Of a stretch of DNA of 40,170 bases, positions 23,673-36,895 are shown in pieces. The notes under the pieces were generated by a model, which saw only the letters and a list, made by a program, of their open reading frames with translations, was not told where the DNA came from and did no database searches. Position 1 is the first letter of the stretch; every line of letters starts with the position of its first letter. Origin of the DNA: Desulfobacterales bacterium (GTDB taxonomy: Bacteria; Desulfobacterota; Desulfobacteria; Desulfobacterales; JAHEIW01); assembly GCA_050122255.1 (NCBI GenBank), contig JASFJF010000001.1, forward strand, positions 1-40,170, written 5' to 3'. The translations under genes and the position numbers were made by a program.

Positions 23673-23701
23673 ATGACATTTAAACACAATTGTGGTATAA
23701 A
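23673..23701 (+). promoter_or_regulatory. Sigma70-like extended -10 promoter ahead of the OFOR-Hdr operon
   Basis: ATGACA (23673-23678), 17-nt spacer ending in TGG, then TATAAA (23696-23701). About 115 nt upstream of ATG 23816. Confidence 0.4.
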
Positions 23702-23815
23702 GTCATCCTAGCGGTCGCCCGATTACCGACTTTTAATACAGAATTCTGGCCAGAAGGGCAACCGGGCGATACCGACAAACCCTCAGACGCTCACATCAAA
23801 ATTTCAGGAGCGATC

Positions 23816-24106
23816 ATGAAATTTTGGCGCCAACCCTTAGACCAGGATCAAATTCAGATTCCCCGTGGTATTATCTATATCATTGATGAGCGCTGCAAAG
23901 GCTGTGGTTTTTGCGTTGAGTTTTGCCCGCGCGCTGTCTTGGTGATGTCCAAAGAGACCAATTCCAAAGGCTATCACCCGCCCACAGTCGTTGATAGTGA
24001 AGCCTGCTCAGACTGCGGCCTGTGCACGTTGCTTTGCCCGGACTTTGCCATATATGTCGAAAGCAGCATGACATCCGCAAGCAACAAGGAAGAGAAAGAT
24101 CCGTAG
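23816..24106 (+). CDS. 2-oxoacid:ferredoxin oxidoreductase delta subunit (2x[4Fe-4S] ferredoxin)
   Basis: Two CxxCxxCxxxCP motifs (CKGCGFCVEFCP, CSDCGLCTLLCP). AGGAG SD upstream of ATG 23816. The track ORF start 23690 is upstream leader. Confidence 0.85.
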   Translation: MKFWRQPLDQDQIQIPRGIIYIIDERCKGCGFCVEFCPRAVLVMSKETNSKGYHPPTVVDSEACSDCGLCTLLCPDFAIYVESSMTSASNKEEKDP

Positions 24107-24111
24107 ATCAA

Positions 24112-25326
24112 ATGCAATCCAAGCGTTCACATGAAGGACTGTTAATCGGCGAACATTTTCTATTGGGGGATTATGCTGCGGCCGAAGGAGCGATTATGGC
24201 CGGATGTCGATTTTTTGCCGGTTATCCCATCACTCCCGCCACCGAGGTCGCCGAACGGATGTCTACGCGACTCCCGCAGGTTGGCGGAATTTACATTCAA
24301 ATGGAAGATGAATTGGCCTCAATGAACGCCATATTGGGCGCTTCATGGTCAGGCGCTAAATCAATGACCTCCACCAGTGGGCCCGGATTTTCTTTAATGA
24401 TGGAGAATCTTGGATTAGGGATTATGCTGGAAACTCCGTGTGTACTGGTCAATGTGCAGCGAGGAGGACCTTCCACCGGATTGCCTACCTTAGTGGGGCA
24501 GCAAGATATGATGCAGGCCCGTTGGGGCTCCCATGGCGACTATGAAATCATCGCCTTGTCACCCAGCTCCTCCCAGGAGCTTTTCGATCTGACCATTCGG
24601 GCCTTCAATTTGGCCGAGAAGTTTCGAACGCCGGTTCTGGTCATGACCGACGCAGAAGTGGGCCACATGACCGAAAGGGTCATCATACCGCCACCGGAAG
24701 AAATTGAGCTCGTCCGGCGGCCTCTGGTTCGGAAAGGTGACCTGGAGCCCGATCATTTTCGAATCTATCGCGATCCTGAGGCCGGCAACGATGGGGAAGT
24801 CGCACCCATGGCGATTGCCGGTGAGGGATTTCGTTTTCATATCACGGGCTTGACGCATGACGAGCGCGGATACCCGGCGATGAATGCCGAGGCCAGTGAA
24901 TGGAACATCAAACGACTGGTTCAAAAAATTCGCTTGCATCGAGATGAAATTATCCAGGTAGAAGAACGCCATCTGGAAGACGCCGAGATAGTTGTTGTAT
25001 CCTATGGTATATCGGCGCGCACCTCCCTGTGGCCGATCGAACAGGCTCGCAAGGAAGGTATCCGTATCGGCTGCATGCGGCTCGTCACCGTATGGCCATT
25101 TCCAGAGGAACGAATTCGGACCCTGGCCAAAAAAATCCGAGCGTTTGTGGTGCCGGAAATTAACGAAGGTCAAATTTTGCGTGAAGTCGAAAGATGTGCG
25201 GCCGGCCGCGCAAAAGTGATCGGAGTCAATCGATTGGGAGGAGACATTTTAGAACCGCAGCAGGTTCTGAGCGCTCTGCGTGCGGCTGCCGGTAAACCGG
25301 ATACAGCCAAAGCCGATAAGCGCTAA
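24112..25326 (+). CDS. 2-oxoacid:ferredoxin oxidoreductase alpha subunit
   Basis: FFAGYPITPATE, TSTSGPGFSLM, NVQRGGPSTGLPT. A hand alignment gives 60/90 identical residues to the korA-like gene at 37385 over this block. Starts 5 nt after the delta stop. Confidence 0.9.
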   Translation: MQSKRSHEGLLIGEHFLLGDYAAAEGAIMAGCRFFAGYPITPATEVAERMSTRLPQVGGIYIQMEDELASMNAILGASWSGAKSMTSTSGPGFSLMMENLGLGIMLETPCVLVNVQRGGPSTGLPTLVGQQDMMQARWGSHGDYEIIALSPSSSQELFDLTIRAFNLAEKFRTPVLVMTDAEVGHMTERVIIPPPEEIELVRRPLVRKGDLEPDHFRIYRDPEAGNDGEVAPMAIAGEGFRFHITGLTHDERGYPAMNAEASEWNIKRLVQKIRLHRDEIIQVEERHLEDAEIVVVSYGISARTSLWPIEQARKEGIRIGCMRLVTVWPFPEERIRTLAKKIRAFVVPEINEGQILREVERCAAGRAKVIGVNRLGGDILEPQQVLSALRAAAGKPDTAKADKR

Positions 25327-25350
25327 GCCATTCGAAAGAGAGACAACAGC

Positions 25351-26940
25351 ATGGCTGATTTTGAAATAAGCGATGCGGGTCAATCCGAACTATCCGGAAC
25401 CGAATCTGCTGGTGACAGCGACTGGATTACCGGGTTGCATCCCATGGATGTGCTTTTAAGAGGCGAACGGTTACCGCATATTTGGTGTCAGGGCTGTGGG
25501 CTTGGTACGGCTCTGACGACTTTTATTGGCGCTCTCCAATGGCTCGAAGCAAATCAGGGCTGGGATCTGGACAAGGTGTCCGTGGTATCGGGAATCGGCT
25601 GTACCGGTCGTATTGCCGGCTACGTTCGCCTGGATTCCTTTCATACCACCCATGGGCGGGCCATTCCGTTTGCAACCGGTCTTAAACTTGCCAATCCCGA
25701 GTTGAAAGTGATCGTTATCTCCGGAGATGGCGATATTGCTGGTATCGGCGGCAATCATTTCATTCATGCCGCTCGACGAAACCTGGACATTACCGTGATA
25801 TGCGTCAACAATTTTAACTATGGCATGACCGGTGGTCAGGTAGGACCGACAACGCCGCACGGTGCCAGGGCTGTTACCACCCAGTATGGCAATTTTGAGT
25901 ATCCCTTTAATCTGCCCTATCTGGCGGCCGCCAGTGGGGCTTCTTTTTTAGCCCGTTGGACTGTCGTCCATGCCCGGCGGCTGGAGTGGACGTTGCGCGA
26001 AGCGATGATGTATCCTGGATATAGCTTTGTTGAAGTGATTGCCCCGTGTTCAACGTCTTATGCCCGCTGGAATCCGGAAGGTCGCGGACTGGATCCCGAG
26101 AAACTGAGGCGACGGGGCTTGGAGCTCATGAAACATTACCAGAAGATCGGGAAGGTTGCCCATGGCACCCACCCCAAAGATGCCGCCATCAAAGTGGATA
26201 AAGATGGCGCCATTGTCGAGATCGTTGAAGGTGTTTTTAGTGACGAACGCAAACCGGATTTTCAGACCGCCATTGACGAACAAGGGCAGATTGCCAGGGA
26301 GCGCTGGCTATCAACAAAAAAAAAGCTGAATGAACGATGCCCAATACCGACACGGACCGGCCGTATTCGCCGAACCGAAGTTCAGCTGGGCGGGTTTGGG
26401 GGTCAGGGTATCGTCAGTGCCGGTCGAATTATCGGCCAGGCGGCAACGATTTATGACAAGTTAGAGGCCTGCTTTACGCAGAGCTATGGCCCGGAGGCAA
26501 GGGGTGGTGCAGCCGGCTCTCAAGTTGTCATCGCCAGCGATCCAATTCATCATCCGCATCTGATTGAACCCACAAATGCGATCATCATGTCCCAGGAGGC
26601 TTATACCAAGTATGCTCCCAACTTGGCTAGCGGCGCAACCCTGTTAATTGACGATGGACTGGTGACACTATCCCCGGATCACCGCCAGGATCTAAAAACG
26701 TATGGGATTCCGGCCACCCGGATTGCTGAAGAATTGGGCAATTCACGGGTGGCCAATACTGTGATGCTGGGGCTCTGGACCGCCATCATCGCAGCGGTCA
26801 GCAAAGCGGCCATGCAGCGATCTGTGGCTGACGCCGTGCCCCCCAAGACCATAGCGGTCAATCTAAACGCTTTTGAGGCCGGTTTCAAAAAAGGTTCGCG
26901 CTATTTAGGCGGCCACGCGTTACAGATCTGGAAGCCATGA
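25351..26940 (+). CDS. 2-oxoacid:ferredoxin oxidoreductase fused beta (TPP-binding) and gamma subunit
   Basis: Beta part has IWCQGCGLG and the TPP motif GDGDIAGIGGNHFIHAARRNLDITVICVNNFNYGMTGGQ. From about aa 341 (nt ~26371) the gamma part has QLGGFGGQGIVSAG...SYGPEARGG. One uninterrupted ORF. Confidence 0.85.
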   Translation: MADFEISDAGQSELSGTESAGDSDWITGLHPMDVLLRGERLPHIWCQGCGLGTALTTFIGALQWLEANQGWDLDKVSVVSGIGCTGRIAGYVRLDSFHTTHGRAIPFATGLKLANPELKVIVISGDGDIAGIGGNHFIHAARRNLDITVICVNNFNYGMTGGQVGPTTPHGARAVTTQYGNFEYPFNLPYLAAASGASFLARWTVVHARRLEWTLREAMMYPGYSFVEVIAPCSTSYARWNPEGRGLDPEKLRRRGLELMKHYQKIGKVAHGTHPKDAAIKVDKDGAIVEIVEGVFSDERKPDFQTAIDEQGQIARERWLSTKKKLNERCPIPTRTGRIRRTEVQLGGFGGQGIVSAGRIIGQAATIYDKLEACFTQSYGPEARGGAAGSQVVIASDPIHHPHLIEPTNAIIMSQEAYTKYAPNLASGATLLIDDGLVTLSPDHRQDLKTYGIPATRIAEELGNSRVANTVMLGLWTAIIAAVSKAAMQRSVADAVPPKTIAVNLNAFEAGFKKGSRYLGGHALQIWKP

Positions 26941-26958
26941 CCAAGGAGGAACGCTTCT

Positions 26959-29900
26959 GTGAACCCGGGCATCCTTATTATTGGTGCAAGCCCAGCAGGG
27001 CTCCAAGCAGCCCTGGATCTGGCCGCAGTCGGTATCGAAGTCTTTTTGACAGAAATTTCACCTTTCATAGGAGACGAACCAGGCTCCGAATTCCCCAGCG
27101 ATATGTCGAGTGCACACGCTCTGGAGGCCGCCAAGCATCCCCGTGTTTATTTGCTAACCCGTACAGCGCTAAAAAGTGCTGAGAAAATCAGAGATGTTTT
27201 CAAGGTTCGTCTTCAGATGCGGCCGCGTTATGTCGATTTAGACCGATGCACGAGCTGCGGGGATTGCCTTGAGGTATGTCCGGTGCAGGTGCCCGGCATA
27301 GATCACAAAGCCATTTACCTCGGTGATGGCCATCAGCCCCAGTCTGCTGCAATTGATAAAATGGGCCTTGCGCCCTGCTCGCATAGCTGCCCGGCGGGTA
27401 TCCATGTTCAGGGCTATGTGGCGCTCATCGCCCAGGGCCGATTTCAGGAAGCACTGGATCTGGTGCGGGAAGCCATCCCTTTTCCCGGCATCTGCGGCCG
27501 GATATGCACCCATCCCTGCGAAATCAACTGCCGTCGTAACGAAATCGACGAGCCGGTGGCCATTCGGCAGCTTAAACGGTTTGTTGCCGATTGGGAACTC
27601 AAAAAGAACGACCCGTCAAATCGCAAAAAATTAAGATTAGCGTTGCCGGCTGCTGGTGCCAAACAGGTAGCGATTGTTGGCGCCGGCCCGTCCGGGCTGA
27701 CGGCCGCACATGACCTGGCACTTAAAAATTATAAGGTGACGGTTTTTGAAAAGCTTCCTGTTGCGGGCGGCATGATGGCGGTGGGCATTCCAGCCTATCG
27801 TCTTCCCAGAGATATCTTAGAAGCGGAAATTGGTGCCATCGAGGAAATGGGCGTTGAAATCAAGACCGGCATCACTTTTGGAAAAGACCTCAATCTAAAG
27901 ACACTCAGATCGGATGGATATTCAGCCCTTTTTCTGGCGACCGGTTTACACGGCAGCCGTAGACTTGGCATCGTTGGCGAAAACCTATCCGGTGTCTTTG
28001 ACGGAGTCTCTTTTCTGCATGATGTTGCGCTCGGGAAAAAGGTGTCACCAGCCGAAAAGCTTATCGTTGTTGGCGGGGGTAATGTGGCCATCGATGTAGC
28101 GCTGACCGCCAGACGACTGGGATCAAGATCGGTTACCATCGTTTGTCTTGAAACCCGCGAAGAAATGCCGGCGCGCGATGAAGAAATGAAGGAGGCCCTG
28201 GCGGCCGGTGTGGAAATTGTGAATTGTTTTGGGCCGAATCGATTCCTGAGCAAAAACAACCAATTTACAGGAATTGAATTCAAGCGTTGCACCTGCGTTT
28301 TCGATGATCAGTGCAATTTCAATCCCCAGTACGATGAAAATGAACTCAGTACCCTGGAAGCGGAAGCTGTCATGATTGCCATCGGCCAATGCGCTGATAT
28401 GGACTTTTTAAAACCCGGGAACACGATGCGGCCACCCCAGGGCGGCATCCGGGCCGACCCGCATACGTTGCAAACGAACATACCGTGGGTATTTGCAGGC
28501 GGAGATGCGCTTTACGGCCCCAAAACCGTCATAGAGGCCATCGCCAGCGGGAAACGGGCTGCGGAAAGTATCGATCGGTATCTTAACCGGCTCGATTCAA
28601 AAGGGAATCGGGTAAGCCAACGGCCCGATGCTGTCAAGGCCGAAGATCATATCAATGGCCATCCGTTCAGGGGCCACTTGCAACAAAGGGTTCAGCTGTC
28701 AATCTCTGAGCGGCCCCTGACAGAAGTGGAACGGATGCCCAAACCTCGGATATCCATGCCGGTTCTATCAAAGGAGAAAAGTTTATGCAGTTTTTCCGAG
28801 GTGGAGCTGGGTTTTTCAGAAGAACAGGCCATCGCCGAAGCCCAACGCTGTCTAGCGTGCGGTCCCTGCAGTGAATGTATGGCCTGTGTCGAGGCTTGCA
28901 AGGCCGGTGCCGTCAACCATGCTGAGCGTGAAAAAGTTGTCGATTTCGAAATGGGTGCCATTATATTGGCCGATGGTCTGACAACATTCGCGCAATTCAA
29001 GTTGCAAGCCGGACCTGGCCTTTATCGGATATCGCCCCGGGAGACGTTTGCGGGTTCTGTTGCGGCCGCCCGCGCCATGCGTCACACAAGGGTCGAATGG
29101 TATTTTACGGCTCCATCCACCGGGATGGGAGCGTATCTGGAGGGCCCTGCGCGCACGGGTGTGTTCCTTTGCCAGTGTGGCGATCACATTGCTCGCGTCG
29201 TCGATACGGATGCGCTGCGCCAGCAATCAACCGATCTGCCCGGTGTTATCCATGCTGATGTAATTCCCCAGGCCTGCCTGCCCGAAGCGGCTGAACATAT
29301 TGACAATGCGGTGTTGAACCACGGTCTGAACCGGGTGCTTTTGGCTGCCTGCAGCTGTTGTTCGCTGGATCAGGTTTGCTCAAGCTGCACACAGCAGCGG
29401 GTTCGCTGTAAAGCTAACCTGGGGCTGTTCACAGCTGGCCTCAACGGCTCACGCTGTAAAACAGATCATCTGTCAGCTGGGAATTGGTCCAATCTGATCT
29501 GGGAATTTGTAAATATCCGCGAGCAGTGCGCCTGGGTACATGCTGACGATCCGGCGGCCGCGACCGCAAAGGCAGATCGGTTAATTGCGGCCGCTGCCGT
29601 CAAGTTGAAGATGGCGTCCCCCCCACAGGCCCCATGGACGGAGGCGGAACGGTCCGTGCTGGTTGTGGGTAACGGCTCGGCAGCAAGGATGTGTCAGGAT
29701 TTACTCGATGATCGACAGATTGTCACCCGGGTTGTTGAGCAGTTGCCCCATCAAATCAGGCGCGTCGATGGGCAATATGCGGTTTCGAATCCGTTGACTG
29801 TCCAGAAGGCAACTGCCGTCGTACTGGCACCGCAGGACGCGGTCGAGGCGCAGCTGTTGTGCAATGCATTTGCGGCCTCTGGCCAAGTCGAGCGAATCAT

Positions 29901-30678
29901 GCCGATGCCACCGGATGTTGAAACCCTGCTGCCGGGCGTTTTTTTCTGTGACCCGCTAAATGGCCGATCGAGCGGGGCGGCTGCTGCTGTCAAGGTGAGT
30001 GGTTGGCTGCATCAACTGACCGAACAGACCAAACCCGTAGCGGCCTCGGTCGATCCGCATCGCTGTCGGGCCTGCAAAACGTGTATCGATATTTGTCAAT
30101 TGAGTGCGCCGCAACTGGTTGGTGAAGATCCACAGCGCCACTGCTGGATTGATCCGATGATCTGTTCGGGATGTGCCAGTTGTGCTGCGCGATGTCCTTC
30201 CGGTGCCATAACAGCGGGCTATGCTACAGATGAACAGCTGCAGGCCATGTTGGCAGCTGTCCTGAAGGCAGACGACATAAATGCAAGGCCCAAAGCGGTG
30301 GTTTTTACATGTAACTGGAATGCCTACCGGGGGCTTGAATCCGCGGGCCGCCGGCATGCGTCCTATCCATCATGGCTTTATCCCTTAAAGGTCATGTGCC
30401 TGGGCCGCTTGAGCCCGGGGATCCTTCTTAACGCCTTTCATTTGAATGCTGACGGGATTTTGCTACTGGGGTGCGCACCGGATGAATGCCATTATTCATT
30501 TGGCAACCAGCGTGTCCGAGAAACATTTGATTTGACCCGCCGGTTAATGCAGCTATTGGGATATTCAGATAGATGTCTTGTCATGGATCGCATTGCGGCT
30601 GGCGATGCAGATTCCGGAGTATCAAAAATACAACTCTTTGTGGATGGTCTGAATGGAGGCCGACAAAAGCATGGGTAA
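26959..30678 (+). CDS. Giant HdrL-like mosaic flavo-FeS protein: HdrA-like units + GltD/NfnB-like NAD(P)H module + MvhD-like C-terminus
   Basis: - aa 1-125: HdrA-type Rossmann (IIGASPAGLQAALDLA) plus CTSCGDCLEVCP.
- aa ~138-545: GltD-like (CPAGIHVQGY..., ICTHPCEINC, VAIVGAGPSGLTAAHDLA, VVGGGNVAID, VFAGGDA).
- aa 631-680: second half of the HdrA Fd insert and FAD domain (CLACGPCSECMACVEAC, VDFEMGAIILADG).
- aa 733-885: HdrA N-domain-like (GVFLCQCGDHIA...IREQCAWV).
- aa 1035-1080: 2x[4Fe-4S].
- aa 1112-1215: MvhD-like (VVFTCNWNAY...LLLGCAPDECHY).
GTG start 8 nt after AAGGAGG. Confidence 0.85.
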   Translation: MNPGILIIGASPAGLQAALDLAAVGIEVFLTEISPFIGDEPGSEFPSDMSSAHALEAAKHPRVYLLTRTALKSAEKIRDVFKVRLQMRPRYVDLDRCTSCGDCLEVCPVQVPGIDHKAIYLGDGHQPQSAAIDKMGLAPCSHSCPAGIHVQGYVALIAQGRFQEALDLVREAIPFPGICGRICTHPCEINCRRNEIDEPVAIRQLKRFVADWELKKNDPSNRKKLRLALPAAGAKQVAIVGAGPSGLTAAHDLALKNYKVTVFEKLPVAGGMMAVGIPAYRLPRDILEAEIGAIEEMGVEIKTGITFGKDLNLKTLRSDGYSALFLATGLHGSRRLGIVGENLSGVFDGVSFLHDVALGKKVSPAEKLIVVGGGNVAIDVALTARRLGSRSVTIVCLETREEMPARDEEMKEALAAGVEIVNCFGPNRFLSKNNQFTGIEFKRCTCVFDDQCNFNPQYDENELSTLEAEAVMIAIGQCADMDFLKPGNTMRPPQGGIRADPHTLQTNIPWVFAGGDALYGPKTVIEAIASGKRAAESIDRYLNRLDSKGNRVSQRPDAVKAEDHINGHPFRGHLQQRVQLSISERPLTEVERMPKPRISMPVLSKEKSLCSFSEVELGFSEEQAIAEAQRCLACGPCSECMACVEACKAGAVNHAEREKVVDFEMGAIILADGLTTFAQFKLQAGPGLYRISPRETFAGSVAAARAMRHTRVEWYFTAPSTGMGAYLEGPARTGVFLCQCGDHIARVVDTDALRQQSTDLPGVIHADVIPQACLPEAAEHIDNAVLNHGLNRVLLAACSCCSLDQVCSSCTQQRVRCKANLGLFTAGLNGSRCKTDHLSAGNWSNLIWEFVNIREQCAWVHADDPAAATAKADRLIAAAAVKLKMASPPQAPWTEAERSVLVVGNGSAARMCQDLLDDRQIVTRVVEQLPHQIRRVDGQYAVSNPLTVQKATAVVLAPQDAVEAQLLCNAFAASGQVERIMPMPPDVETLLPGVFFCDPLNGRSSGAAAAVKVSGWLHQLTEQTKPVAASVDPHRCRACKTCIDICQLSAPQLVGEDPQRHCWIDPMICSGCASCAARCPSGAITAGYATDEQLQAMLAAVLKADDINARPKAVVFTCNWNAYRGLESAGRRHASYPSWLYPLKVMCLGRLSPGILLNAFHLNADGILLLGCAPDECHYSFGNQRVRETFDLTRRLMQLLGYSDRCLVMDRIAAGDADSGVSKIQLFVDGLNGGRQKHG

Positions 30679-31816
30679 CATGAAAGACATTATCCAACAC
30701 TGTCGAGCATGGTATTGCCAGGAATGTGGCAAGTGCAGTGCGGTATGCCCGATCACCCGTTGGGAGACCCGTTCCTACAGTAGCCCCCGGCTGCTGGTGG
30801 AGAAGGCCGTCGATGGCCAGCCCGAGAAGGTCATGCAGGATCCATTATTTTGGTCCTGCCTGACCTGCCAGCGCTGTAGTCTATTGTGTCCATCGGATGT
30901 CCATTTTTCTGATTTCATGCAGCAGGCCAGAACCCTGGCCACGAGTTGCGGGCACACCGGTGAATGCACCCATGGAGCGGCAATTCAAAATTGGGGTAAA
31001 ATGATGACCGAACCGGGCCTGGCCCAAAATCGCCTGGACTGGATTACACCGGAGCTTCAGGTATCTGATAATTCTGAGATCGTGTATTTTACGGGTTGTT
31101 TACCCTACTATGATGCCTTCTTTAAGCATTTGGATATAGAGGGCATCGACATTGCCAGGGCAGCGCTGAAAATCTTGAACCACCTGGAGGTCACGCCCCA
31201 GGTCATGGCCGACGAGCGATGCTGCGGTCATGATCAGCTATGGGAAGGCGATATGCAGACATTTCAGGCATTGGCCGAACGCAACCTTGAGGCCCTCAGC
31301 GCTACCGGTGCGAAAACCATTGTCACCACCTGTCCGGAATGTGCCTTTATGCTGACTCGCGAATACCCCAAACGGGTCGCAGACCATGGCATGGCGGTAT
31401 TTCACCTGGCTCAGTATTTGGCGCAGGCCGTTGGCGATGGGAATCTCGTGCTGCAGGCCAAATACGAGCAGCGCGTCACCTACCATGATCCCTGCCGTTT
31501 GGGCCGCTATCTTAATATCTACGATGAGCCGCGATCGTTAATGGCAGCTATGGGATTGGATTTACGGGAAATGGAACGGGTCCGCAGTGCCAGCCTGTGT
31601 TGCGGCACCACCGGGTGGACGTCCTGTGGACAGGTCAGCAAGAATATTCAAACTGAGCGGTTGCAGGAAGCGTCTCAAACAGGTGTCAGCCGAATGATTA
31701 CGGCCTGCGTTAAATGCCAGATTCATTTTCGTTGTGCCCAGCAGGATCAACAGCTGGAGGATAAACTCAACCTCGAGATTCAAGATCTAACGACATTAAT
31801 CGCGAATCATCTCTGA
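30671..31816 (+). CDS. HdrD-type protein (HdrC-like 2x[4Fe-4S] + HdrB-like double CCG domain), soluble
   Basis: CQECGKCSAVCP and CLTCQRCSLLCP, then CCG-domain signatures (YFTGC, CCGHD, TTCPEC, YHDPC, CCGTTG, TACVKC). No TM segment. ATG 30671 overlaps the upstream stop by 8 nt. ATG 30653 and 30680 are alternatives. Confidence 0.8.
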   Translation: MGNMKDIIQHCRAWYCQECGKCSAVCPITRWETRSYSSPRLLVEKAVDGQPEKVMQDPLFWSCLTCQRCSLLCPSDVHFSDFMQQARTLATSCGHTGECTHGAAIQNWGKMMTEPGLAQNRLDWITPELQVSDNSEIVYFTGCLPYYDAFFKHLDIEGIDIARAALKILNHLEVTPQVMADERCCGHDQLWEGDMQTFQALAERNLEALSATGAKTIVTTCPECAFMLTREYPKRVADHGMAVFHLAQYLAQAVGDGNLVLQAKYEQRVTYHDPCRLGRYLNIYDEPRSLMAAMGLDLREMERVRSASLCCGTTGWTSCGQVSKNIQTERLQEASQTGVSRMITACVKCQIHFRCAQQDQQLEDKLNLEIQDLTTLIANHL

Positions 31817-31854
31817 TCGCCGGCGGCCAAAAAGATCCGGCTTGCGAGTGTGTT

Positions 31855-33531
31855 TTGGATAAAGCAAAAAGTGCTTTCAATATGATGCAACCAAATATCG
31901 CCACAACCGACATACTGGATCCGAATCTGCTCCAAAGCGTTGTCCGACAGGCGACGTTTCAATGCCGTGCGCAAGGCAGCGGTTTTTACCTGTTTGATCC
32001 GGCGGGCGGCCACAGGATCTTGCTGGCCACTCAGAACCTGCCCAAAGAACCCTGGGATGACGTGCTTCTAAAAGAAATGATCAACTCCGGTCAGGCGGTC
32101 ATTAAAACGCTTCCGGATCAATCTGTTTTGATGGCGGCGCCACTGGTCTGGCAGGAAGCCGTTCGCGGGCTGCTGATTGTTTTCGATAATAAGCCCGGAC
32201 GAACCTTCAGTGAGCGAGATATGGCCCTGATCCAATCTCTGGCAGACCTGACAGCATCGGTTGCCCAGCAAAACGAGCGACTGGCCCGCATGACCGCTCA
32301 ATTTCGCACTTTACACACCATTGATGTTGCGCTGACATCGAGCCTTGAATTGGATCGCGTCCTGAACCTCATCCTTGAAAAAGCCGCTGAGCTGGTCAAT
32401 GCCGAGCACGGCTCGTTGCGACATCTGGAACCAGAGACCGGTAATCTTGTCCTCAAGGCGCACTACGGAAAAGGGTGGACAAAAGAAAAAATGGCGTATA
32501 CCCCGCGCATCGGGCAGGGGATTGCCCGCTGGGTGGCCGAAAAGCAACGGCCTTATCTTTGCCCTGACGTTCGCAAGGATCCTTTAAACGTCGTACTTTT
32601 TGAAGATATGCGTTCCAGCATTTCGGTACCCTTGTTGTACAGCTCGGACAAACAGCACCCAAAAGGAAAATTCATCGGGGTTTTGCTTTTAGAAAGCTCG
32701 CGCCCGGTTGCCTTTGATCAGCAGGATGTTGAACTTCTGGAAGCATTGGCCCAGGAGGCGGTCATTGCCATCCAAAACGCCACTCAGCTTCAAAAACTCA
32801 AGGCGGAGCAAGAACGGCGTCTGGCTGCCGAAAAGTGGGCCGTCATGGGCCAGGCAGCGACTGCCCTGGCGCATCGAATTAATAACCTCTTAGGGGTAGT
32901 GCCGGTTAGCGCCAGTGAAGTGTTACGAATGGTAGCGAAAATGAACCTATCGGATGCAGACCGCCGTTGGGCCCAGTCTAATCTGGAGCGTATCAATCGA
33001 AATGCGCAGTTTATTCTTAAGCTCAGCGAAGCATTATTCAGACCGTTTAAGGAATCCGGTCCAGCCACTCGATTTGACGTCAACCAATTACTCAATGAAG
33101 CGTTAGACTCTGCCGATATAGCCGATGATGTTGAGGTCGTTTGTGACTATGATAACCAGCTGCCCCGGGTGAGTGGCAGTTTGCTTCTGCTGGACATATT
33201 CCTTGAACTCATTATCAATGCTTGCAATGCCATGGAGCGTTGCAAGACCAGACGGCTTGAGATCAGCAGCCGATCGGAAAAAATTGATGGTCTTCCCTGG
33301 ATCCGGGTAAACATCAGTGATACGGGCAAAGGGATGTCTTCCCATCATTTGGAGCATTTATGGAATTTATTTCAACCCAGTGATGACGGGCTTGGATTTG
33401 GGTTGTGGTGGATGCGAACTTTTATCGAACGCCAGGGTGGAACCATTGACTGCCGCAGCCAGCCGGATCATGGCGCTACGTTTATCATCCGGTTACCGGC
33501 TGCCAATGATGTGGAGCAAGTCTATGCCTAA
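31855..33531 (+). CDS. Cytoplasmic GAF-GAF sensor histidine kinase
   Basis: Two GAF-like regions, H-box ATALAHRINNLLG, and ATPase N, G1 and G2 boxes (INACNAM, DTGKGM, GFGLWW). No TM helices. Start is TTG 31855 or ATG 31882. Confidence 0.85.
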   Translation: MDKAKSAFNMMQPNIATTDILDPNLLQSVVRQATFQCRAQGSGFYLFDPAGGHRILLATQNLPKEPWDDVLLKEMINSGQAVIKTLPDQSVLMAAPLVWQEAVRGLLIVFDNKPGRTFSERDMALIQSLADLTASVAQQNERLARMTAQFRTLHTIDVALTSSLELDRVLNLILEKAAELVNAEHGSLRHLEPETGNLVLKAHYGKGWTKEKMAYTPRIGQGIARWVAEKQRPYLCPDVRKDPLNVVLFEDMRSSISVPLLYSSDKQHPKGKFIGVLLLESSRPVAFDQQDVELLEALAQEAVIAIQNATQLQKLKAEQERRLAAEKWAVMGQAATALAHRINNLLGVVPVSASEVLRMVAKMNLSDADRRWAQSNLERINRNAQFILKLSEALFRPFKESGPATRFDVNQLLNEALDSADIADDVEVVCDYDNQLPRVSGSLLLLDIFLELIINACNAMERCKTRRLEISSRSEKIDGLPWIRVNISDTGKGMSSHHLEHLWNLFQPSDDGLGFGLWWMRTFIERQGGTIDCRSQPDHGATFIIRLPAANDVEQVYA

Positions 33532-33535
33532 ATTC

Positions 33536-33749: not shown

Positions 33750-34217
33750 ATGCGCGGAAAAGTCCTAATTGTAGATGATTATGCCGATTGGCGAGGACTG
33801 CTCAGCGGGCTGCTGGAACGCGAAGGGCATTTGGTCCAGGCCGCAGCGACCAAAGAAGAAGCCCTTGCATTTATAAATGAAAACAATGATCTGGATCTCT
33901 CTGTTTTAGATATTCGTTTAGTGGACGTGGATGAAAGCAACGAGGACGGTATTCATTTGCTGGCCGAAATCCGCGAACGACTTCCGTTTACCCGCGTGAT
34001 CATGGTCACCGGCTACGGTACCATGGAAACGCAACGCAAAGCGTTCAAGCAGTATCAGGCTTTTGATTTTTTCAGCAAGGCCCAGTTTGATTCCGAGGAA
34101 TTTAAAAATGCGTTTCAGGAGGCCATCGAGCAAGCAGCCCGGGAGCGGCAGTTCTGGAAGGATAAAGAAATTGCGCACGAACACCAATATCAGACCTGGC
34201 AGCGGGAAAAAGGTTGA
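33750..34217 (+). CDS. Receiver-only (CheY-like) response regulator
   Basis: REC residues are present (VDDYAD, phospho-acceptor in VLDIRL, VTGYG, FFSK). 155 aa with only a short helical tail and no output domain. GAGGAG SD upstream. Confidence 0.85.
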   Translation: MRGKVLIVDDYADWRGLLSGLLEREGHLVQAAATKEEALAFINENNDLDLSVLDIRLVDVDESNEDGIHLLAEIRERLPFTRVIMVTGYGTMETQRKAFKQYQAFDFFSKAQFDSEEFKNAFQEAIEQAARERQFWKDKEIAHEHQYQTWQREKG

Positions 34218-34333: not shown

Positions 34334-36895
34334 TTGACCAAAGAAGAATTGCGGATAGGCGTTTTTGTATGTGATTGCGGCTCCAATATTGCCGGAGTTA
34401 TCAGTGTCGATGAGGTCCAGCGGTTCGCCGAGGCATTGCCGCATGTGGTCGTGGCGGTCCGGAACAAATACACGTGTTCCGATCCGGGCCAGCAAGAAAT
34501 TCAACAAACCATTTTCGATCACAAGCTCAACCGTGTGGTGGTCGCATCCTGTTCTCCGGCTTCTTACGAACCTATTTTTCGGCATTGCATCCAGGCAGCC
34601 GGGTTAAACCCCTATCTGCTGGAAATGGCGAATATTCGCGAACACTGTTCCTGGGTGACGCAGGATCGTGAAGCAGCCACCCAAAAAGCGCTGGGTATCG
34701 TTCGGGTTGCCGTTGCCCGCGCCAAATGGCTCTACCCGCAGGATGAGGAGCACATTCCGGTCACGGATGCGGCCCTGGTGATTGGTGGCGGAGTGGCCGG
34801 CATGCAGTCAGCCCTGGATCTGGCAGATGCCGGGCATCCGGTTTATTTGGTAGAAAAAAAGCCTTCCATTGGCGGCATTATGGCCCAGCTCGACAAAGTC
34901 TATCCAGACATTGAGTGCAGCATCTGAATCCTCGGGCCCAAGATGATGGATGTCGGTCGGCATCCCCGAATAGAGCTCATGACCAACGCTGTTATAGAAG
35001 ATGTCAGCGGATATGTGGGCAACTTTAAAGCGCGCATTCGAAAAAAGCCCCGCTATGTCGATGAGGACCAATGCACGACCTGTGGGGATTGTGTGGCGGT
35101 CTGTCCGGTGGTTGTGCCCGACGAATTTCAAATGGGACTCAGCAGCCGCCGGGCGATTTATATCCCATTTCCCCAGGCCGTGCCTTCGGCTTATGTGGTT
35201 TCAGCCGAAGATTGTTTGGGTCGCAACCCGATCGCCTGTGGCAAGTGCATTGAATCCTGTGAGAAAAATTGTATCGATTTTGATCAGGAAGACGAGCTTG
35301 TCGATATTGATATCGGCGCTATCATTGTTGCCACCGGCATGGACGTATACGATCCGACCGCGCTGGACGAATACGGGTATACGCGTTTTGTCAATGTTGT
35401 CACCAGCCTTGAATTTGAACGGCTGATCTCTACCGGAGGCGCACTGGCCGGAAATCTGGGCCGTCCCAGCGACAAGAAGCGACCTTTGCGTATCGGCTAT
35501 ATTCAATGCGTCGGCTCTCGAACTCAAGACCCCAGCCGCGGCAACCCTTATTGTTCCAACATTTGCTGTATGAACAGCATCAAAGGCGCCCAATACCTGG
35601 TCGATAACTACCCGGATACGGATATTACGATTTTTTATACCGATATTCGCGCTTATGGCAAAGGGTTTGAGGAGCTTTTGATGCGCACCCGCGGTCATGG
35701 GGTTCGATATTTACGCGGATTGCCCGGTGAAGTTCGGGAAGACCCGCACAGCAAAAATTTGTGGGTGACCGTTGAAAATACAACGGAAAAGCGCCTCGAA
35801 ACATTAGAATTTGAAATGCTGGTGCTGGCTGTTGGTGCTGTGCCGGCCGTTGATACAGAGTTTGTGCGTCAGATGGTCAGCCTGTCAAAATCTCCCGGCG
35901 GATTTTTAAAAGAAGCCCATGCCAAGCTGAGGCCGGTGGATACGCCCACAAAGGGGGTTTTTATAGCCGGCGCGGCTGAAAGCCCCAAAGATGTCCGTGA
36001 AAGTGTCACCCAGGCCAGCGCCGCCAGCGCACGGGCCACCATTTTATTGCAAAAGAACCACTTTGCCATTGAGGCGATTACCGCGGTTGTATATGAAGAG
36101 CCTTGCACCCGCTGCGGTCAATGCGCGCAAGTCTGTCCTTTTGGTGCCATAACCTGGGAAAAGAAGCGGGTGCCTCAGATCATCAGTGCGGCCTGTGCCG
36201 GATGCGGGACCTGTGCAGCTGAGTGCAAATTCGGGGCCATTGAAATGCGCCATTTTTCAGACCAGGCGATCTATGCCCAAATTGACGCTATTCTAGTAGA
36301 AAACAGTCTGGAAAAAATCGTAACCTTTGCCTGTAATTGGTGTTCCTATGCTGGCGCTGACACAGCCGGACTGAGCCGTATGGCTTACCCGCCGCACGCC
36401 CTTATTATCCGCACGATGTGCTCGGGGCGGGTGCATCCTGAATTTGTGTGGTATGCATTTCAAAAGGGCGCGCCCGTTGTGCTGGTTTCTGGCTGTCACT
36501 ACGTTGACTGTCATTACATGGATGCTAATCGAAGCACAGTTCGTCGCATTGACGGCTTGTGGGATAAATTGATAAAAACGGGTATCCGACCTGAGCGGCT
36601 GATGTTGGAATGGTGTTCGGCCGCTGAAGGTGGCCGCTGGCAGACCATCATGCTGGACGCTGAGAAAAAGCGCCAGTCGGTAACACCCGAGGAAATAGAG
36701 TTGACCCGTTCTGAGCTGTCAAAGGTTCGGGTGCCCCGTCCCCGGAATCCCAAACCGGCTGACGAAAACAGCGCCGCACAATTTCATTGCCACCGCTGCG
36801 GTCACCGATGGGACGGTCGCTTCAAAGTGGATTGGGAGCGTATTTGTCCCAACTGTCGCTCCAACAGCGTGCACTGGTTGCGACAAAATCATTGA
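34334..36895 (+). CDS. hdrA: Selenocysteine-containing HdrA fused to an MvhD-like domain and a C-terminal zinc ribbon (single gene, UGA-Sec at 34925-34927)
   Basis: Track ORFs 34334-34927 and 34943-36895 share a frame and are separated only by TGA. Read through, the sequence gives LDKVYPDIECSI-U-ILGPKMMDVGRHPRIEL, the HdrA CSxC(I/L)LxPKM motif with Sec replacing the second Cys. Other parts are the N-domain (GVFVCDCGSNIAG), Fd insert, C-terminal 2x[4Fe-4S], MvhD-like FACNWCSYAG...VSGCHYVDCHY (nt ~36314-36637), and CHRCG...CPNC (nt ~36815-36886). TTG start 6 nt after AAGGAGG. Confidence 0.85.
34932..34969 (+). other. Candidate bacterial SECIS hairpin
   Basis: Upper stem ggatg (34948-34952) with catcc (34961-34965) and apical loop ucggucgg containing GGUC. 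Possible lower stem ucgg (34932-34935) with ccga (34966-34969). The upper stem begins 21 nt after the UGA. Confidence 0.5.

What the first reader, a model, noticed from the sequence alone, without database searches (positions are those of the whole stretch)
23673..31816. OFOR genes packed into one operon with an HdrL-type giant flavo-FeS protein and a soluble HdrD-type protein: candidate undescribed OFOR-Hdr bifurcating or confurcating complex
Five same-strand genes lie behind one promoter-like element. The gaps are 5, 24 and 18 nt, followed by an 8-nt overlap.

The genes, in order:
1. OFOR delta subunit
2. OFOR alpha subunit
3. Fused OFOR beta-gamma subunit
4. A 1239-aa protein combining HdrA-like, GltD/NfnB-like NAD(P)H-FAD and MvhD-like modules
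5. An HdrC+HdrB-type double-CCG protein

No hydrogenase, formate dehydrogenase, FlxABCD-type or membrane (HdrE-like) partner is present. The usual electron-input modules of HdrA-family complexes therefore appear to be replaced by a TPP-dependent 2-oxoacid oxidoreductase.

Established roles of the parts:
- OFOR handles ferredoxin-level electrons.
- The GltD/NfnB module handles NAD(P)(H).
- CCG domains act on a disulfide or another two-electron acceptor.
- MvhD acts as an electron wire or docking unit to HdrA.

The inference is a soluble complex that couples 2-oxoacid oxidation (or reductive carboxylation) to NAD(P) and a thiol/disulfide couple by flavin-based bifurcation or confurcation. I am not aware of a biochemically characterised OFOR-Hdr complex.
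Basis: partly seen in the sequence, partly recalled or inferred. Interest (0 to 1): 0.8.

Follow-up and report, generated by a model that had tools for sequence, protein, structure and literature searches.

The report
OFOR genes wired to Hdr-type modules
A 2-oxoacid:ferredoxin oxidoreductase is encoded in one tightly packed, widely conserved gene cluster with NAD(P)H-binding and heterodisulfide-reductase-like iron-sulfur flavoproteins, which suggests an untested enzyme system that links 2-oxoacid/CO2 chemistry to NAD(P)H by splitting electron pairs.

Summary
Five + strand genes (OFOR delta, alpha, fused beta-gamma, a 1239-aa HdrL-type protein, a soluble double-CCG HdrD-type protein) lie at 23816-31816. 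The gaps are 5, 24 and 18 nt, then an 8-nt overlap, and all predicted domains are present.

The linkage is not confined to this genome. Among related loci from Desulfobacterales and Chloroflexota MAGs:
- the OFOR beta-gamma gene lies upstream of HdrL in 26 of 27 evaluable loci;
- HdrD lies downstream in 23 of 23.

The finding needs three corrections:
1. It stops too early. A canonical full-length, selenocysteine-containing HdrA-MvhD gene (34334-36895) is co-conserved in 21 of 23 loci. It is directly adjacent to HdrD wherever the GAF-kinase/regulator pair is absent. A second OFOR follows it.
2. HdrL's own HdrA-like parts are degenerate. Its intact redox module is NfnB-like, with a CLE motif where characterised NADPH enzymes have YRR.
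3. The idea is not new. An "HdrAL/POR" locus is named in Syntrophobacter fumaroxidans, and KorABCD embedded in Flx-Hdr clusters has been proposed to form a bifurcating complex. Neither has been characterised biochemically.

Best reading: HdrL feeds in NAD(P)H electrons, HdrA splits them, HdrD takes the high-potential branch, and the OFOR takes the place of ferredoxin. I rate it a new variant of a known kind.

The parts
23673..23701 (+). Promoter-like element: ATGACA, 17-nt spacer, TATAAA, with a TGn extended -10. It lies 114 nt upstream of the delta start codon.
   Evidence: Read from the sequence. The scan did not list it because of its rule for position 6 of the -10 hexamer. This is a consensus match only.
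23816..24106 (+). OFOR1 delta subunit (96 aa), a 2x[4Fe-4S] ferredoxin-like protein.
   Evidence: Two Fer4 motifs and 8 Cys. The best NCBIfam hits are OGOR_delta and OorD, both below cutoff.
24112..25326 (+). OFOR1 alpha subunit (404 aa).
   Evidence: POR_N plus PFOR_II. NF006412 scores 558.7 bits, above its cutoff of 411. Closest solved structures: 1yd7 (1.7e-123), OGOR 8ys5 and OGOR 6n2n.
25351..26940 (+). OFOR1 fused beta-gamma subunit (529 aa).
   Evidence: TPP_enzyme_C at 91-229 and POR at 350-512. Matches OGOR beta 8ys5_C at 1.8e-62 and gamma 3on3. All 120 listed homologues are 515-538 aa and carry both domains, at 73-90% identity.
26959..30678 (+). HdrL-type protein (1239 aa). It contains a reduced HdrA-like Rossmann segment, an NfnB/GltD-like NAD(P)H-FAD-2x[4Fe-4S] module nested in the inserted-ferredoxin motifs, a Cys-rich domain like the HdrA N-terminal domain, a second reduced Rossmann segment, a 2x[4Fe-4S] ferredoxin domain and an MvhD domain.
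   Evidence: Domain calls. Solved-structure matches. Motif reading and conservation. AF2 models and Foldseek. NADPH-site motif.
30671..31816 (+). Soluble HdrD-type protein (381 aa): an HdrC-like dicluster plus two complete CCG motifs. Its start overlaps the end of HdrL by 8 nt.
   Evidence: Two CCG stretches and Fer4_8. Motif positions and absence of TM segments. HdrC matches at 1e-10 and 9ojn_A at 1.4e-32.
31855..33531 (+). GAF-domain histidine kinase. The true start is probably near 31882. Present in about half of the related loci.
   Evidence: GAF and HATPase_c. Synteny.
33750..34217 (+). Stand-alone receiver-domain response regulator (155 aa).
   Evidence: Receiver-domain hits to NtrX, AtoC and ActR. 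Response_reg is annotated at the same position in L030.
34334..36895 (+). Canonical HdrA-MvhD fusion (HdrA2-like, 853 codons). It has one in-frame TGA at 34925-34927, at the second Cys of the HdrA DCSxC motif, so it is a probable selenoprotein. It ends in a short Cys-rich tail.
   Evidence: Both ORFs are in one frame. TGA and its context. NF040770 HdrA2 scores 1078 bits over the full length. E 1e-218 to solved HdrA, plus MvhD matches. Co-conserved in 21 of 23 loci.
37169..37375 (+). OFOR2 delta subunit (68 aa).
   Evidence: An ORF with two CxxCxxCxxxCP motifs. A Fer4 gene sits at the same position in L030.
37385..38533 (+). OFOR2 alpha subunit (382 aa).
   Evidence: NF006412 scores 504.5 bits, above its cutoff of 411.
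38538..39341 (+). OFOR2 beta subunit (267 aa).
   Evidence: NF007207 (286 bits) and TIGR02177, both below cutoff.
39344..39883 (+). OFOR2 gamma subunit (179 aa).
   Evidence: NF006323 (172 bits), below cutoff.
39947..39972 (+). Terminator-like hairpin with a T-rich tail after the last gene of the same-strand cluster.
   Evidence: This is a consensus match only.

Best explanation
The locus encodes a soluble, multi-subunit electron-bifurcating (reversibly confurcating) system built around a Kor/Oor-type 2-oxoacid:ferredoxin oxidoreductase.

Proposed mechanism (inferred):
1. NAD(P)H is oxidised at the NfnB/GltD-like FAD of HdrL. In this lineage the donor is probably NADH, because the NADPH-phosphate motif YRR is replaced by CLE.
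2. Electrons pass along HdrL's iron-sulfur chain and its C-terminal MvhD domain to the canonical HdrA-MvhD flavoprotein encoded a little further downstream.
3. The FAD of that HdrA splits the electron pair.
4. The high-potential electron goes to the double-CCG HdrD, which reduces a disulfide or another two-electron acceptor of unknown identity.
5. The low-potential electron goes through ferredoxin-type clusters into the delta subunit of the OFOR instead of free ferredoxin. This drives reductive carboxylation of an acyl-CoA, probably succinyl-CoA to 2-oxoglutarate.
6. In reverse, 2-oxoacid oxidation plus a dithiol would reduce NAD(P)+.

Shown here: the genes, their domains and cofactor motifs, the tight spacing, and the conservation of the gene set across phyla.

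Inferred: physical complex formation, the site of bifurcation, the direction of electron flow, and the substrates.
For: Spacing. The gaps are 5, 24 and 18 nt with an 8-nt HdrL/HdrD overlap. In L031 both the beta-gamma/HdrL and the HdrL/HdrD junctions overlap by 4 nt.

Conserved synteny:
- OFOR beta-gamma lies upstream of HdrL in 26 of 27 evaluable loci.
- HdrD lies downstream in 23 of 23.
- The HdrA-MvhD gene lies after HdrD in 21 of 23. It is adjacent (gaps of 15-395 nt) in 11 loci. It sits about 2.2-2.7 kb further on in 10 loci, and in each of those the kinase gene fills the gap.
- The loci come from Desulfobacterales and Anaerolineae/Chloroflexota MAGs, with HdrL identity as low as 41-47%.

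Cofactor modules:
- HdrL's NfnB-like module is complete. The Fer4_20 cysteines, GAGPSG and GGGN are invariant. Foldseek gives TMt 0.78 to NfnI-L, and the top hits are Nfn-ABC and Stn.
- The MvhD domain matches at TMt 0.82-0.87, rmsd 1.6 A.
- The downstream HdrA is full length, with E 1e-218.
- HdrD has both CCG motifs.

Context:
- No hydrogenase, formate dehydrogenase or Flx gene, and no ferredoxin gene outside the two OFOR clusters, is in the window.
- SucCD lies directly upstream of the cluster in L031/L032, and the closest solved OFORs are OGORs.
- Published precedent exists for the same logic with a different input module (PMC6315080, PMC11636981).
Against: - There is no expression, co-purification or activity evidence.
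- The only cultured-organism locus named in the literature (S. fumaroxidans HdrAL/POR) was not detected in proteomes (PMC5947623).
- In this window a kinase/regulator pair and 2.5 kb separate HdrD from the HdrA gene.
- L029 has no HdrA gene within 7.5 kb.
- Free ferredoxin could mediate between separate enzymes.
- The thiol/disulfide partner is unknown, and Anaerolineae are not known sulfate reducers, so DsrC cannot be the general partner.
- CCG proteins also serve non-thiol substrates: the best NCBIfam hits for HdrD are TfrB, LdhH and GlpC.
- The AF2 models are only moderate (pLDDT 69-71), and no multimer modelling was possible.
Confidence: 0.45

Rival explanations
1. Only the five products (OFOR delta, alpha, beta-gamma, HdrL and HdrD) form the complex. 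Bifurcation occurs within HdrL itself, at its NfnB-like FAD as in NfnAB, or at a residual HdrA-like flavin. The downstream HdrA-MvhD protein is not involved.
For: - The five genes form the tightest block.
- In NfnAB the GltD/NfnB-type FAD is itself the bifurcating flavin (established knowledge), and HdrL matches NfnI-L at TMt 0.78.
- L029 keeps OFOR, HdrL, MvhD and HdrD but has no HdrA gene nearby.
- In this window a two-component system separates the block from the HdrA gene.
Against: - The HdrA-MvhD gene is co-conserved in 21 of 23 loci, and it is directly adjacent to HdrD in every locus that lacks the kinase/regulator pair.
- Its sequence (70-95% identity) is far better conserved than HdrL's (38-82%).
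- HdrL's HdrA-like segments lack DCSxC and the CVGSR...CSxxCC domain.
- In the Stn and Nfn-ABC enzymes, the closest structural matches, the GltD-like module serves as an NADPH port (from memory).
Confidence: 0.15
2. There is no physical OFOR-Hdr complex. HdrL, HdrD and HdrA form a stand-alone NAD(P)H:ferredoxin/disulfide bifurcating enzyme, a functional analogue of FlxABCD-HdrABC. The OFORs are ordinary ferredoxin-dependent enzymes. They are co-located and co-regulated with it because they consume or produce the same ferredoxin pool.
For: - OFOR1 carries its own standard delta ferredoxin subunit, the usual exit to soluble ferredoxin.
- A second ordinary four-subunit OFOR sits in the same cluster.
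- HdrL-type proteins occur with quite different partners (FdhAB, DsrABC, HdrABC) in other genomes (PMC2702500, PMC5947623, PMC12142623). This suggests a general NAD(P)H/ferredoxin module.
Against: - No stand-alone ferredoxin gene is in the cluster, and nothing else in the window encodes an electron carrier or redox enzyme.
- The gene order is strictly conserved, with overlapping or near-overlapping junctions between the OFOR beta-gamma gene and HdrL in distant lineages. Such junctions are typical of subunits of one complex (inference).
- Every HdrL-linked OFOR1 retrieved has the beta-gamma fusion, whereas OFOR2 in the same window does not.
Confidence: 0.25
3. The system is an NAD(P)+-dependent 2-oxoacid dehydrogenase with no bifurcation. 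HdrL simply passes OFOR electrons to NAD(P)+, as the extra flavoprotein subunit does in phenylglyoxylate:NAD+ oxidoreductase (PadEFGHI) or in the NADP+-reducing 2-oxoglutarate oxidoreductase of Azoarcus. HdrD and HdrA have a side role or a separate one.
For: - 2-Oxoacid oxidation (about -500 mV) to NAD(P)+ (-320 mV) is exergonic and needs no coupling (established thermodynamics).
- OFORs with an added GltD-like NAD-binding subunit are known (from memory). PadG, PadI and PadE appear among the weak NCBIfam hits.
Against: - It does not explain the universal co-conservation of a complete double-CCG HdrD (23 of 23) and a canonical HdrA-MvhD (21 of 23).
- It does not explain the MvhD domain on HdrL.
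Confidence: 0.1

Closest known systems
MvhAGD-HdrABC, FdhAB-MvhD-HdrABC and Elp-Hdr complexes of methanogens (solved: 5odc, 7bkb, 8rvu)
   Same: - A canonical HdrA with all domains (E 1e-218).
- MvhD as the connector (TMt 0.82-0.87).
- An HdrC-like dicluster plus two CCG motifs, equivalent to HdrBC.
- All components are soluble.
   Different: - The input module is an NfnB-like NAD(P)H flavoprotein (HdrL), not a hydrogenase or formate dehydrogenase.
- HdrB and HdrC are fused into one HdrD-type protein.
- A TPP-dependent OFOR is encoded in the operon where no ferredoxin-consuming enzyme normally is, except Fwd in the 7bkb supercomplex.
- The organisms are bacteria without CoM/CoB.
korABCD embedded in flxABCD-hdrABC within rTCA gene clusters of tubeworm symbionts and Chromatiaceae (PMC6315080, PMC11636981)
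   Same: - A four-domain OGOR-type OFOR is interleaved with HdrA and HdrBC genes and an NADH-oxidising module.
- The authors propose direct electron delivery to the OFOR by flavin-based bifurcation.
- Neither system has been characterised biochemically.
   Different: - There the input is FlxABCD, HdrB and HdrC are separate, and the cluster sits among aclAB, tfrAB and pntAB genes in Gammaproteobacteria.
- Here the input is a single 1239-aa HdrL, the CCG protein is HdrD-type, beta and gamma of the OFOR are fused, and the hosts are Desulfobacterales and Anaerolineae.
'HdrAL/POR' locus Sfum_0012-0018 of Syntrophobacter fumaroxidans (PMC5947623)
   Same: It is described as an HdrA/HdrL-type protein associated with a pyruvate:ferredoxin oxidoreductase. 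This is the only published naming of such a linkage that I found.
   Different: I could not retrieve the S. fumaroxidans sequence, so orthology is untested. The products were not detected in any proteome condition, and no function was assigned.
HdrL proteins of Desulfobacterium autotrophicum and relatives (PMC2702500; HdrABC/HdrL in PMC5947623; HdrL-FdhAB in PMC12142623)
   Same: A large HdrA/GltD fusion with an NAD(P)H-binding site, associated with MvhD. It is proposed to link NAD(P)H to other redox modules.
   Different: Those HdrL genes are linked to dsrABC, hdrABC or fdhAB, not to an OFOR. In this window MvhD is fused to HdrL.
NfnAB, Nfn-ABC and StnABC transhydrogenases (5jca, 4ylf, 9bov, 9n5u, 8oh5)
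   Same: HdrL residues 137-643 match their GltD-like NADPH-FAD-2x[4Fe-4S] subunit or domain (E 1e-70 to 4e-106; Foldseek).
   Different: - There is no NfnA/PyrK-like partner and no HydBC-like partner.
- The YRR NADPH motif of all five characterised homologues is CLE here.
- The module is nested inside an HdrA-derived scaffold.
NAD(P)+-dependent OFORs: phenylglyoxylate:NAD+ oxidoreductase PadEFGHI and Azoarcus 2-oxoglutarate:NADP+ oxidoreductase (from memory)
   Same: An OFOR core combined with an added flavoprotein that binds a pyridine nucleotide.
   Different: Those enzymes have no CCG protein, no HdrA and no MvhD, and they are not thought to bifurcate.

Membership tests
2-oxoacid:ferredoxin oxidoreductase (Kor/Oor-type, delta-alpha-beta-gamma) | Alpha subunit with POR_N and PFOR_II domains | tested here: met
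   Pfam 234.7 and 76.1 bits. NF006412 scores 558.7, above its cutoff of 411.
2-oxoacid:ferredoxin oxidoreductase (Kor/Oor-type, delta-alpha-beta-gamma) | Beta subunit with a TPP-binding domain (GDG...NN motif) and cluster cysteines | tested here: met
   TPP_enzyme_C scores 115 bits. The sequence reads 'ISGDGDIAGIGGNHF...VNNFNYGMTGGQ', with Cys in 'WCQGCG', 'GIGCTG' and 'APCSTS'.
2-oxoacid:ferredoxin oxidoreductase (Kor/Oor-type, delta-alpha-beta-gamma) | Gamma (POR) domain and a delta 2x[4Fe-4S] ferredoxin subunit | tested here: met
   POR scores 103.9 bits, fused to beta. Delta has two Fer4 motifs and 8 Cys.
2-oxoacid:ferredoxin oxidoreductase (Kor/Oor-type, delta-alpha-beta-gamma) | Substrate is 2-oxoglutarate, making it a true KOR/OGOR | tested here: inconclusive
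   All OGOR-specific NCBIfam models score below cutoff. The closest solved relatives are 1yd7 (a generic 2-keto acid OFOR), then OGORs 8ys5 and 6n2n. SucCD is adjacent in L031/L032. No activity data exist.
HdrA (bifurcating subunit of heterodisulfide reductase), applied to the 1239-aa HdrL protein | Thioredoxin-reductase-like FAD domain with GGGxAG and the conserved DCSxC motif near the flavin | tested here: not met
   The N-terminus reads GASPAG, and GGSxAG in most of the aligned homologues. The stretch that should hold DCSxC is variable and has no conserved Cys.
HdrA (bifurcating subunit of heterodisulfide reductase), applied to the 1239-aa HdrL protein | [4Fe-4S] cluster motif CVGSR...CSxxCC in the NADH-domain-like insertion | tested here: not met
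   No such motif or domain is present. The only Cys between 860 and 1030 are 912, 968 and 997, and none of them is invariant.
HdrA (bifurcating subunit of heterodisulfide reductase), applied to the 1239-aa HdrL protein | Cys-rich N-terminal-type domain, C-terminal 2x[4Fe-4S] ferredoxin domain, and overall fold | tested here: inconclusive
   Residues 733-865 carry CxCG...AACSCC...NIREQCAWVH with invariant cysteines, and the dicluster at 1036-1079 is invariant. Foldseek to HdrA gives probability 1.0, but TM is only 0.24-0.30 at 15% identity.
HdrA (bifurcating subunit), applied to the downstream gene 34334-36895 | Full-length match including the N-terminal domain, FAD domain, DCSxC/U, CVGSR...CSxxCC, and inserted and C-terminal ferredoxin domains | tested here: met
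   E 1e-218 over residues 2-656 against 8rvu_a, and 1e-216 against 5odc_A. NF040770 HdrA2 scores 1078 bits, just under its cutoff of 1100. A TGA sits at the second Cys of DCSxC.
NfnB/GltD-like NAD(P)H:FAD iron-sulfur flavoprotein | Fer4_20 two-cluster domain plus two Rossmann motifs (FAD and NAD(P)H) | tested here: met
   Fer4_20 scores 73.9 bits and Pyr_redox_2 scores 126.4 bits. C140, C144, C183, C187, C191, G241/G243/G246 and G372-N375 are invariant. TMt is 0.78 to 5jca_L.
NfnB/GltD-like NAD(P)H:FAD iron-sulfur flavoprotein | YRR(T/S) motif after beta-2 of the NADPH Rossmann fold (binds the 2'-phosphate) | tested here: not met
   The window has VTIVCLETREEMPA. 4ylf_B, 5jca_L, 8oh5_C, 9bov_A and 9n5u_A all have YRR. 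Among the aligned HdrL homologues, those at 44-50% identity keep YRR, except P0091 and P0046, which have CLE like the window's clade. This suggests NADH preference (inference).
MvhD / FlpD | FlpD domain with the MvhD fold | tested here: met
   PF02662 scores 102.2 bits over 1114-1231. Foldseek gives TMt 0.82-0.87 and rmsd 1.6 A to 5odc_D, 8rvu_F and 7bkb_F.
HdrD / HdrBC-type CCG protein | HdrC-like 2x[4Fe-4S] motifs plus two complete CCG motifs (CXnCCGXmCXXC) | tested here: met
   Motif positions. CCG Pfam scores 99.3 bits in 2 stretches. HdrC matches at 1.5e-10.
HdrDE (membrane-bound heterodisulfide reductase) | A cytochrome b membrane partner (HdrE) or transmembrane helices | tested here: not met
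   The maximum 19-residue hydropathy in HdrD is 0.88. No membrane cytochrome gene is in the window.
HdrL (as defined for D. autotrophicum, PMC2702500) | A large soluble HdrA/glutamate-synthase-small-subunit fusion with an NAD(P)H site, associated with MvhD | tested here: met
   MvhD is fused here and is a separate gene in L029.
Flavin-based electron-bifurcating enzyme complex (functional class) | Coupled endergonic and exergonic electron transfer from one two-electron donor, in a stable complex | not testable with these tools
   This needs purification and coupled activity assays.

The most novel reading that the evidence does not exclude
A six-protein soluble supercomplex in which HdrA's bifurcating flavin injects low-potential electrons directly into the TPP/iron-sulfur chain of an OFOR, without free ferredoxin. 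NADH (via HdrL) plus an exergonic disulfide reduction (via HdrD) would then drive reductive carboxylation of succinyl-CoA or acetyl-CoA. That would be an NADH-powered 2-oxoacid synthase used by abundant sediment Desulfobacterales and Anaerolineae.
Probability: 0.25. Interest if true: 0.8.

Novelty: new variant of a known kind. Interest (0 to 1): 0.6.

Why it matters
OFORs are the CO2-fixing or CO2-releasing steps of several anaerobic pathways, and running them in the reductive direction needs electrons near -500 mV. If bifurcation machinery is wired directly to an OFOR, NADH could pay for reductive carboxylation without a ferredoxin pool. This would change energy and carbon budgets for very abundant uncultured sediment bacteria: the fused beta-gamma subunit alone has thousands of metagenomic homologues.

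The locus also offers a compact alternative, with a single-polypeptide input module, to the Flx-Hdr-Kor clusters proposed in sulfur-oxidising symbionts. Two independent architectures would then point to the same untested biochemistry. The CLE versus YRR difference gives a ready-made natural test of NADH versus NADPH specificity.

Tried and rejected
- Automated promoter and terminator scans. Counts were no higher than in shuffled sequence, and there was no convincing internal terminator or promoter. They do not resolve the transcript structure.
- Rfam scan of 22000-40170. Nothing reached the gathering score.
- SECIS check downstream of the TGA. A small hairpin with a GGUC loop lies about 23 nt downstream, but its folding energy is no better than shuffles (z = +1.15). 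Selenocysteine is therefore inferred from the motif position and from the same split HdrA gene calls in L030, L031 and L032, not from a SECIS element.
- AF2 of HdrL 1-1104 and 655-1239. Quality is only moderate (pLDDT 70.6 and 68.7), and the iron-sulfur regions are disordered. The models identify domains but cannot show whether the reduced Rossmann segments bind FAD.
- Literature. Pereira et al. 2011 and Appel et al. 2021, the two reviews most likely to list OFOR-HdrA neighbourhoods, are not in the library. My statement that nothing has been characterised rests on the searchable literature only.
- I considered class II benzoyl-CoA reductase (BamB-I) as a relative. I rejected it as a family assignment: there is no BamB-type tungsten enzyme and no NuoEFG-like gene. 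It shares only the general use of HdrA, MvhD and CCG modules.

Full report
OBSERVATION

The five genes exist as described:
- delta, 23816-24106
- alpha, 24112-25326
- fused beta-gamma, 25351-26940
- a 1239-aa protein, 26959-30678
- a 381-aa protein, 30671-31816

All lie on the + strand. The gaps are 5, 24 and 18 nt, followed by an 8-nt overlap. This is a reasonable sigma-70-like match. However, the automated scans found no more promoter-like or terminator-like sites in the region than in shuffled sequence. 'One promoter' is therefore a plausible reading, not a result.

- delta: two Fer4 motifs.
- alpha: POR_N and PFOR_II.
- beta-gamma: TPP_enzyme_C and POR.
- the large protein: Fer4, Fer4_20, Pyr_redox_2, a second dicluster ferredoxin domain and FlpD/MvhD.
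- the last protein: an HdrC-like dicluster plus two CCG domains.

Both CCG motifs are complete, and none of the five proteins has a predicted transmembrane segment. The rest of the window encodes housekeeping functions: RNase G, LeuRS, LptE, MurJ, homoserine dehydrogenase, TsaD, a GGDEF-EAL protein, YceG and others. There is no hydrogenase, formate dehydrogenase, Flx or HdrE-like gene. The window is a whole 40,170-bp contig of a Desulfobacterales MAG.

IS THE LINKAGE MORE THAN CHANCE?

Yes. A scan of one genome per GTDB species with peptides from the large protein returned 28 loci. Four more came from exact look-ups of more distant homologues. I located all window proteins in these loci with tblastn:
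- An OFOR beta-gamma gene lies upstream of the HdrL-type gene in 26 of 27 loci where the upstream DNA is on the contig. The gap is under 400 nt in 24 of them. The exception is an Actinomycetota contig with only 38% identity.
- An HdrD-type gene follows HdrL in 23 of 23 loci.

The loci come from Desulfobacterales and from Anaerolineae and other Chloroflexota MAGs. In the latter, HdrL is only 41-47% identical to the window protein. In L031 both junctions are 4-nt overlaps.

One caveat applies. The loci were ascertained through HdrL itself, so the figures describe this HdrL clade, not all HdrL proteins. In the literature, other HdrL genes sit next to dsrABC, hdrABC or fdhAB (PMC2702500, PMC5947623, PMC12142623).

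THE UNIT IS LARGER THAN THE FINDING

Downstream of HdrD the same strand continues with these genes:
- a GAF histidine kinase (31855-33531);
- a receiver-only response regulator (33750-34217);
- two ORFs in one frame (34334-34927 and 34943-36895), separated by a single TGA;
- a second four-subunit OFOR (delta 37169-37375, alpha 37385-38533, beta 38538-39341, gamma 39344-39883);
- a terminator-like hairpin at 39947.

The TGA lies in '...DIECSI-TGA-ILGPK'. This is the second cysteine of HdrA's DCSxC motif, a position where selenocysteine is known in HdrA proteins. Read through, the gene encodes an 853-residue HdrA-MvhD fusion. It aligns over residues 2-656 with solved HdrA subunits at E 1e-218, and over 661-787 with MvhD. 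It also scores 1078 bits against the HdrA2 model.

This gene is present after HdrD in 21 of 23 evaluable loci. It is directly adjacent (gaps of 15-395 nt) in the 11 loci that lack the kinase/regulator pair. It lies about 2.2-2.7 kb further on in the 10 loci where the pair, or at least the kinase, is found in between. Its sequence is much better conserved (70-95%) than HdrL's (38-82%). The conserved core is therefore OFOR1 (delta, alpha, beta-gamma), HdrL, HdrD and HdrA-MvhD. The two-component pair looks like a lineage-specific insertion.

ANATOMY OF THE 1239-aa PROTEIN

It fits the published definition of HdrL: an HdrA/GltD fusion with an NAD(P)H site, associated with MvhD (PMC2702500). Its parts are unequal.

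The NfnB/GltD-like module (about 137-643) is intact:
- It matches the NADPH-binding subunits of Nfn-ABC, Stn and NfnI at E 1e-70 to 4e-106.
- The AF2 model superposes on NfnI-L at TMt 0.78.
- The cluster cysteines and both Rossmann glycine motifs are invariant in 32 homologues.

This module is nested between the two CxxCxxCxxxC motifs (97-107 and 631-647) of what corresponds to HdrA's inserted ferredoxin domain.

The flanking HdrA-like pieces are reduced:
- The N-terminal Rossmann motif is GASPAG, and GGSxAG in most of the aligned homologues, instead of GGGxAG.
- The DCSxC stretch is variable and has no conserved Cys.
- The NADH-domain-like insertion with the CVGSR...CSxxCC cluster is absent.
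- A second short Rossmann segment (896-1015) is poorly conserved.

Residues 733-865 resemble HdrA's N-terminal cluster domain and carry extra invariant cysteines. The C-terminal dicluster ferredoxin domain and the MvhD domain are well preserved: MvhD matches at TMt 0.82-0.87 and rmsd 1.6 A. The whole C-terminal half matches HdrA only loosely, at TM 0.24-0.30 and 15% identity. I therefore do not file HdrL as a functional HdrA. It looks like an HdrA-derived scaffold that carries an NfnB-type NAD(P)H port and an MvhD plug.

One detail is directly testable. All five characterised structural homologues have YRR(T/S) after beta-2 of the NADPH Rossmann fold. The window protein and its close relatives have CLE(T). 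Among the aligned homologues at 44-50% identity, all keep YRR except P0091 and P0046, which have CLE. An acidic residue at this position usually favours NADH (inference).

THE OFOR

OFOR1 alpha passes the curated threshold for a 2-oxoacid:acceptor oxidoreductase alpha subunit. The OGOR-specific models score high but below threshold. The nearest solved structures are a Pyrococcus 2-keto acid OFOR and then the OGORs 8ys5 and 6n2n. They are not PFOR, VOR or IOR enzymes.

In L031/L032 succinyl-CoA synthetase genes lie directly upstream of the delta gene. In L029 an IclR regulator and a DctPQM TRAP transporter lie upstream. These are hints, not proof, that the substrate pair is 2-oxoglutarate/succinyl-CoA.

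The beta-gamma fusion is a hallmark of this OFOR1. All 120 best database homologues are 515-538 aa and carry both domains, at 73-90% identity, and thousands more exist in metagenomes. OFOR2 in the same window has separate beta and gamma subunits.

MECHANISM

Shown: the components and their co-inheritance. Inferred: everything about electron flow.

The arrangement maps onto the canonical Mvh/Fdh-Hdr logic:
- an input module ending in MvhD (here HdrL with NAD(P)H);
- a canonical HdrA whose FAD bifurcates;
- a CCG protein for the high-potential branch (HdrD);
- a low-potential branch leaving through ferredoxin-type clusters.

The only low-potential redox enzyme encoded in the conserved unit is the OFOR. 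Its delta subunit is itself a dicluster ferredoxin. So the simplest model is that the OFOR replaces free ferredoxin as the acceptor. This would give NAD(P)H-driven reductive carboxylation paid for by disulfide reduction, or the reverse confurcation.

A donor at about -500 mV has no need of bifurcation to reduce NAD(P)+ or a disulfide. I give this model 0.45.

The rivals are:
- separate enzymes that communicate through free ferredoxin (0.25);
- a non-bifurcating NAD(P)+-dependent OFOR like PadEFGHI (0.10).

COMPARISON WITH THE LITERATURE

I found no biochemical characterisation, but the idea has precedents:
- In tubeworm symbionts and some Chromatiaceae, korABCD lies between hdrA and hdrBC of a flxABCD-hdrABC cluster inside rTCA gene clusters. 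[quoted passage not shown] Later work shows co-expression (PMC11636981).

The present locus is a second, architecturally distinct solution: HdrL instead of Flx, HdrD instead of HdrBC, and a fused beta-gamma subunit, in different phyla.

VERDICT

- It is a new variant of a known kind. It is of real interest to anaerobe bioenergetics because it is abundant, compact and testable, but it is not categorically new.

Noticed in passing
window 34334-36895 (TGA at 34925-34927): A canonical HdrA-MvhD fusion gene is interrupted by one in-frame TGA at the second Cys of the DCSxC motif, so it is a probable selenoprotein. Gene callers split it into 197 + 650 aa here, and likewise in L030, L031 and L032. The downstream hairpin with a GGUC loop is not energetically significant.
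   Followed up: partly
window 37169-39883: A second complete four-subunit OFOR (delta, alpha, beta, gamma, with beta and gamma unfused) of the same NCBIfam family follows the HdrA gene. It is conserved at 72-97% in the Desulfobacterales relatives (L005-L007, L019, L030). Its substrate and its relation to OFOR1 are unknown.
   Followed up: partly
window 31855-34217: A GAF histidine kinase and a receiver-only response regulator are inserted between HdrD and the HdrA gene, here and in about half of the related loci. The GAF region weakly resembles the NifA GAF region (TIGR01817, 1.1e-06), a domain known to bind 2-oxoglutarate. This may hint at the signal it senses.
   Followed up: no
window 26959-30678 versus L030 9001-12711: L030 shares the window's flanking genes (GGDEF-EAL 84%, GH3 73%, YceG 69%). 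Its other cluster genes are also similar: OFOR1 alpha 82% and beta-gamma 78%, HdrA 79%, OFOR2 79-89%. Its HdrL, however, is only 47% identical and carries the YRR (NADPH-type) motif instead of CLE. HdrL either evolves much faster than its partners or has been exchanged as a cassette.
   Followed up: partly
L011, L014-L018 (Anaerolineales/Chloroflexia MAGs); probably L009: These loci carry two tandem HdrL-type genes between the OFOR and HdrD. The first copy lacks the MvhD part, and in several loci MvhD is a separate small gene.
   Followed up: no
L031 3520-5592, L032; L029 2444-6515: Succinyl-CoA synthetase genes (SucC/SucD-like) lie directly upstream of the OFOR delta gene in one lineage. An IclR regulator plus a DctPQM TRAP transporter lie upstream in another. 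In L029 the alpha gene appears truncated, with only a 128-aa PFOR_II fragment called.
   Followed up: partly
L009-L027 versus window 24112-26940: OFOR1 alpha and beta-gamma are 69-80% identical between the window and the loci in which HdrL is only 41-47% identical (Anaerolineae/Chloroflexota MAGs and some Desulfobacterales MAGs). Identity this high across phyla suggests horizontal transfer of the cluster, or mis-binned contigs.
   Followed up: no
window 9106-9924 (- strand): A protein that combines a circularly permuted YpsA SLOG domain with DUF6794. It is unrelated to the finding.
   Followed up: no
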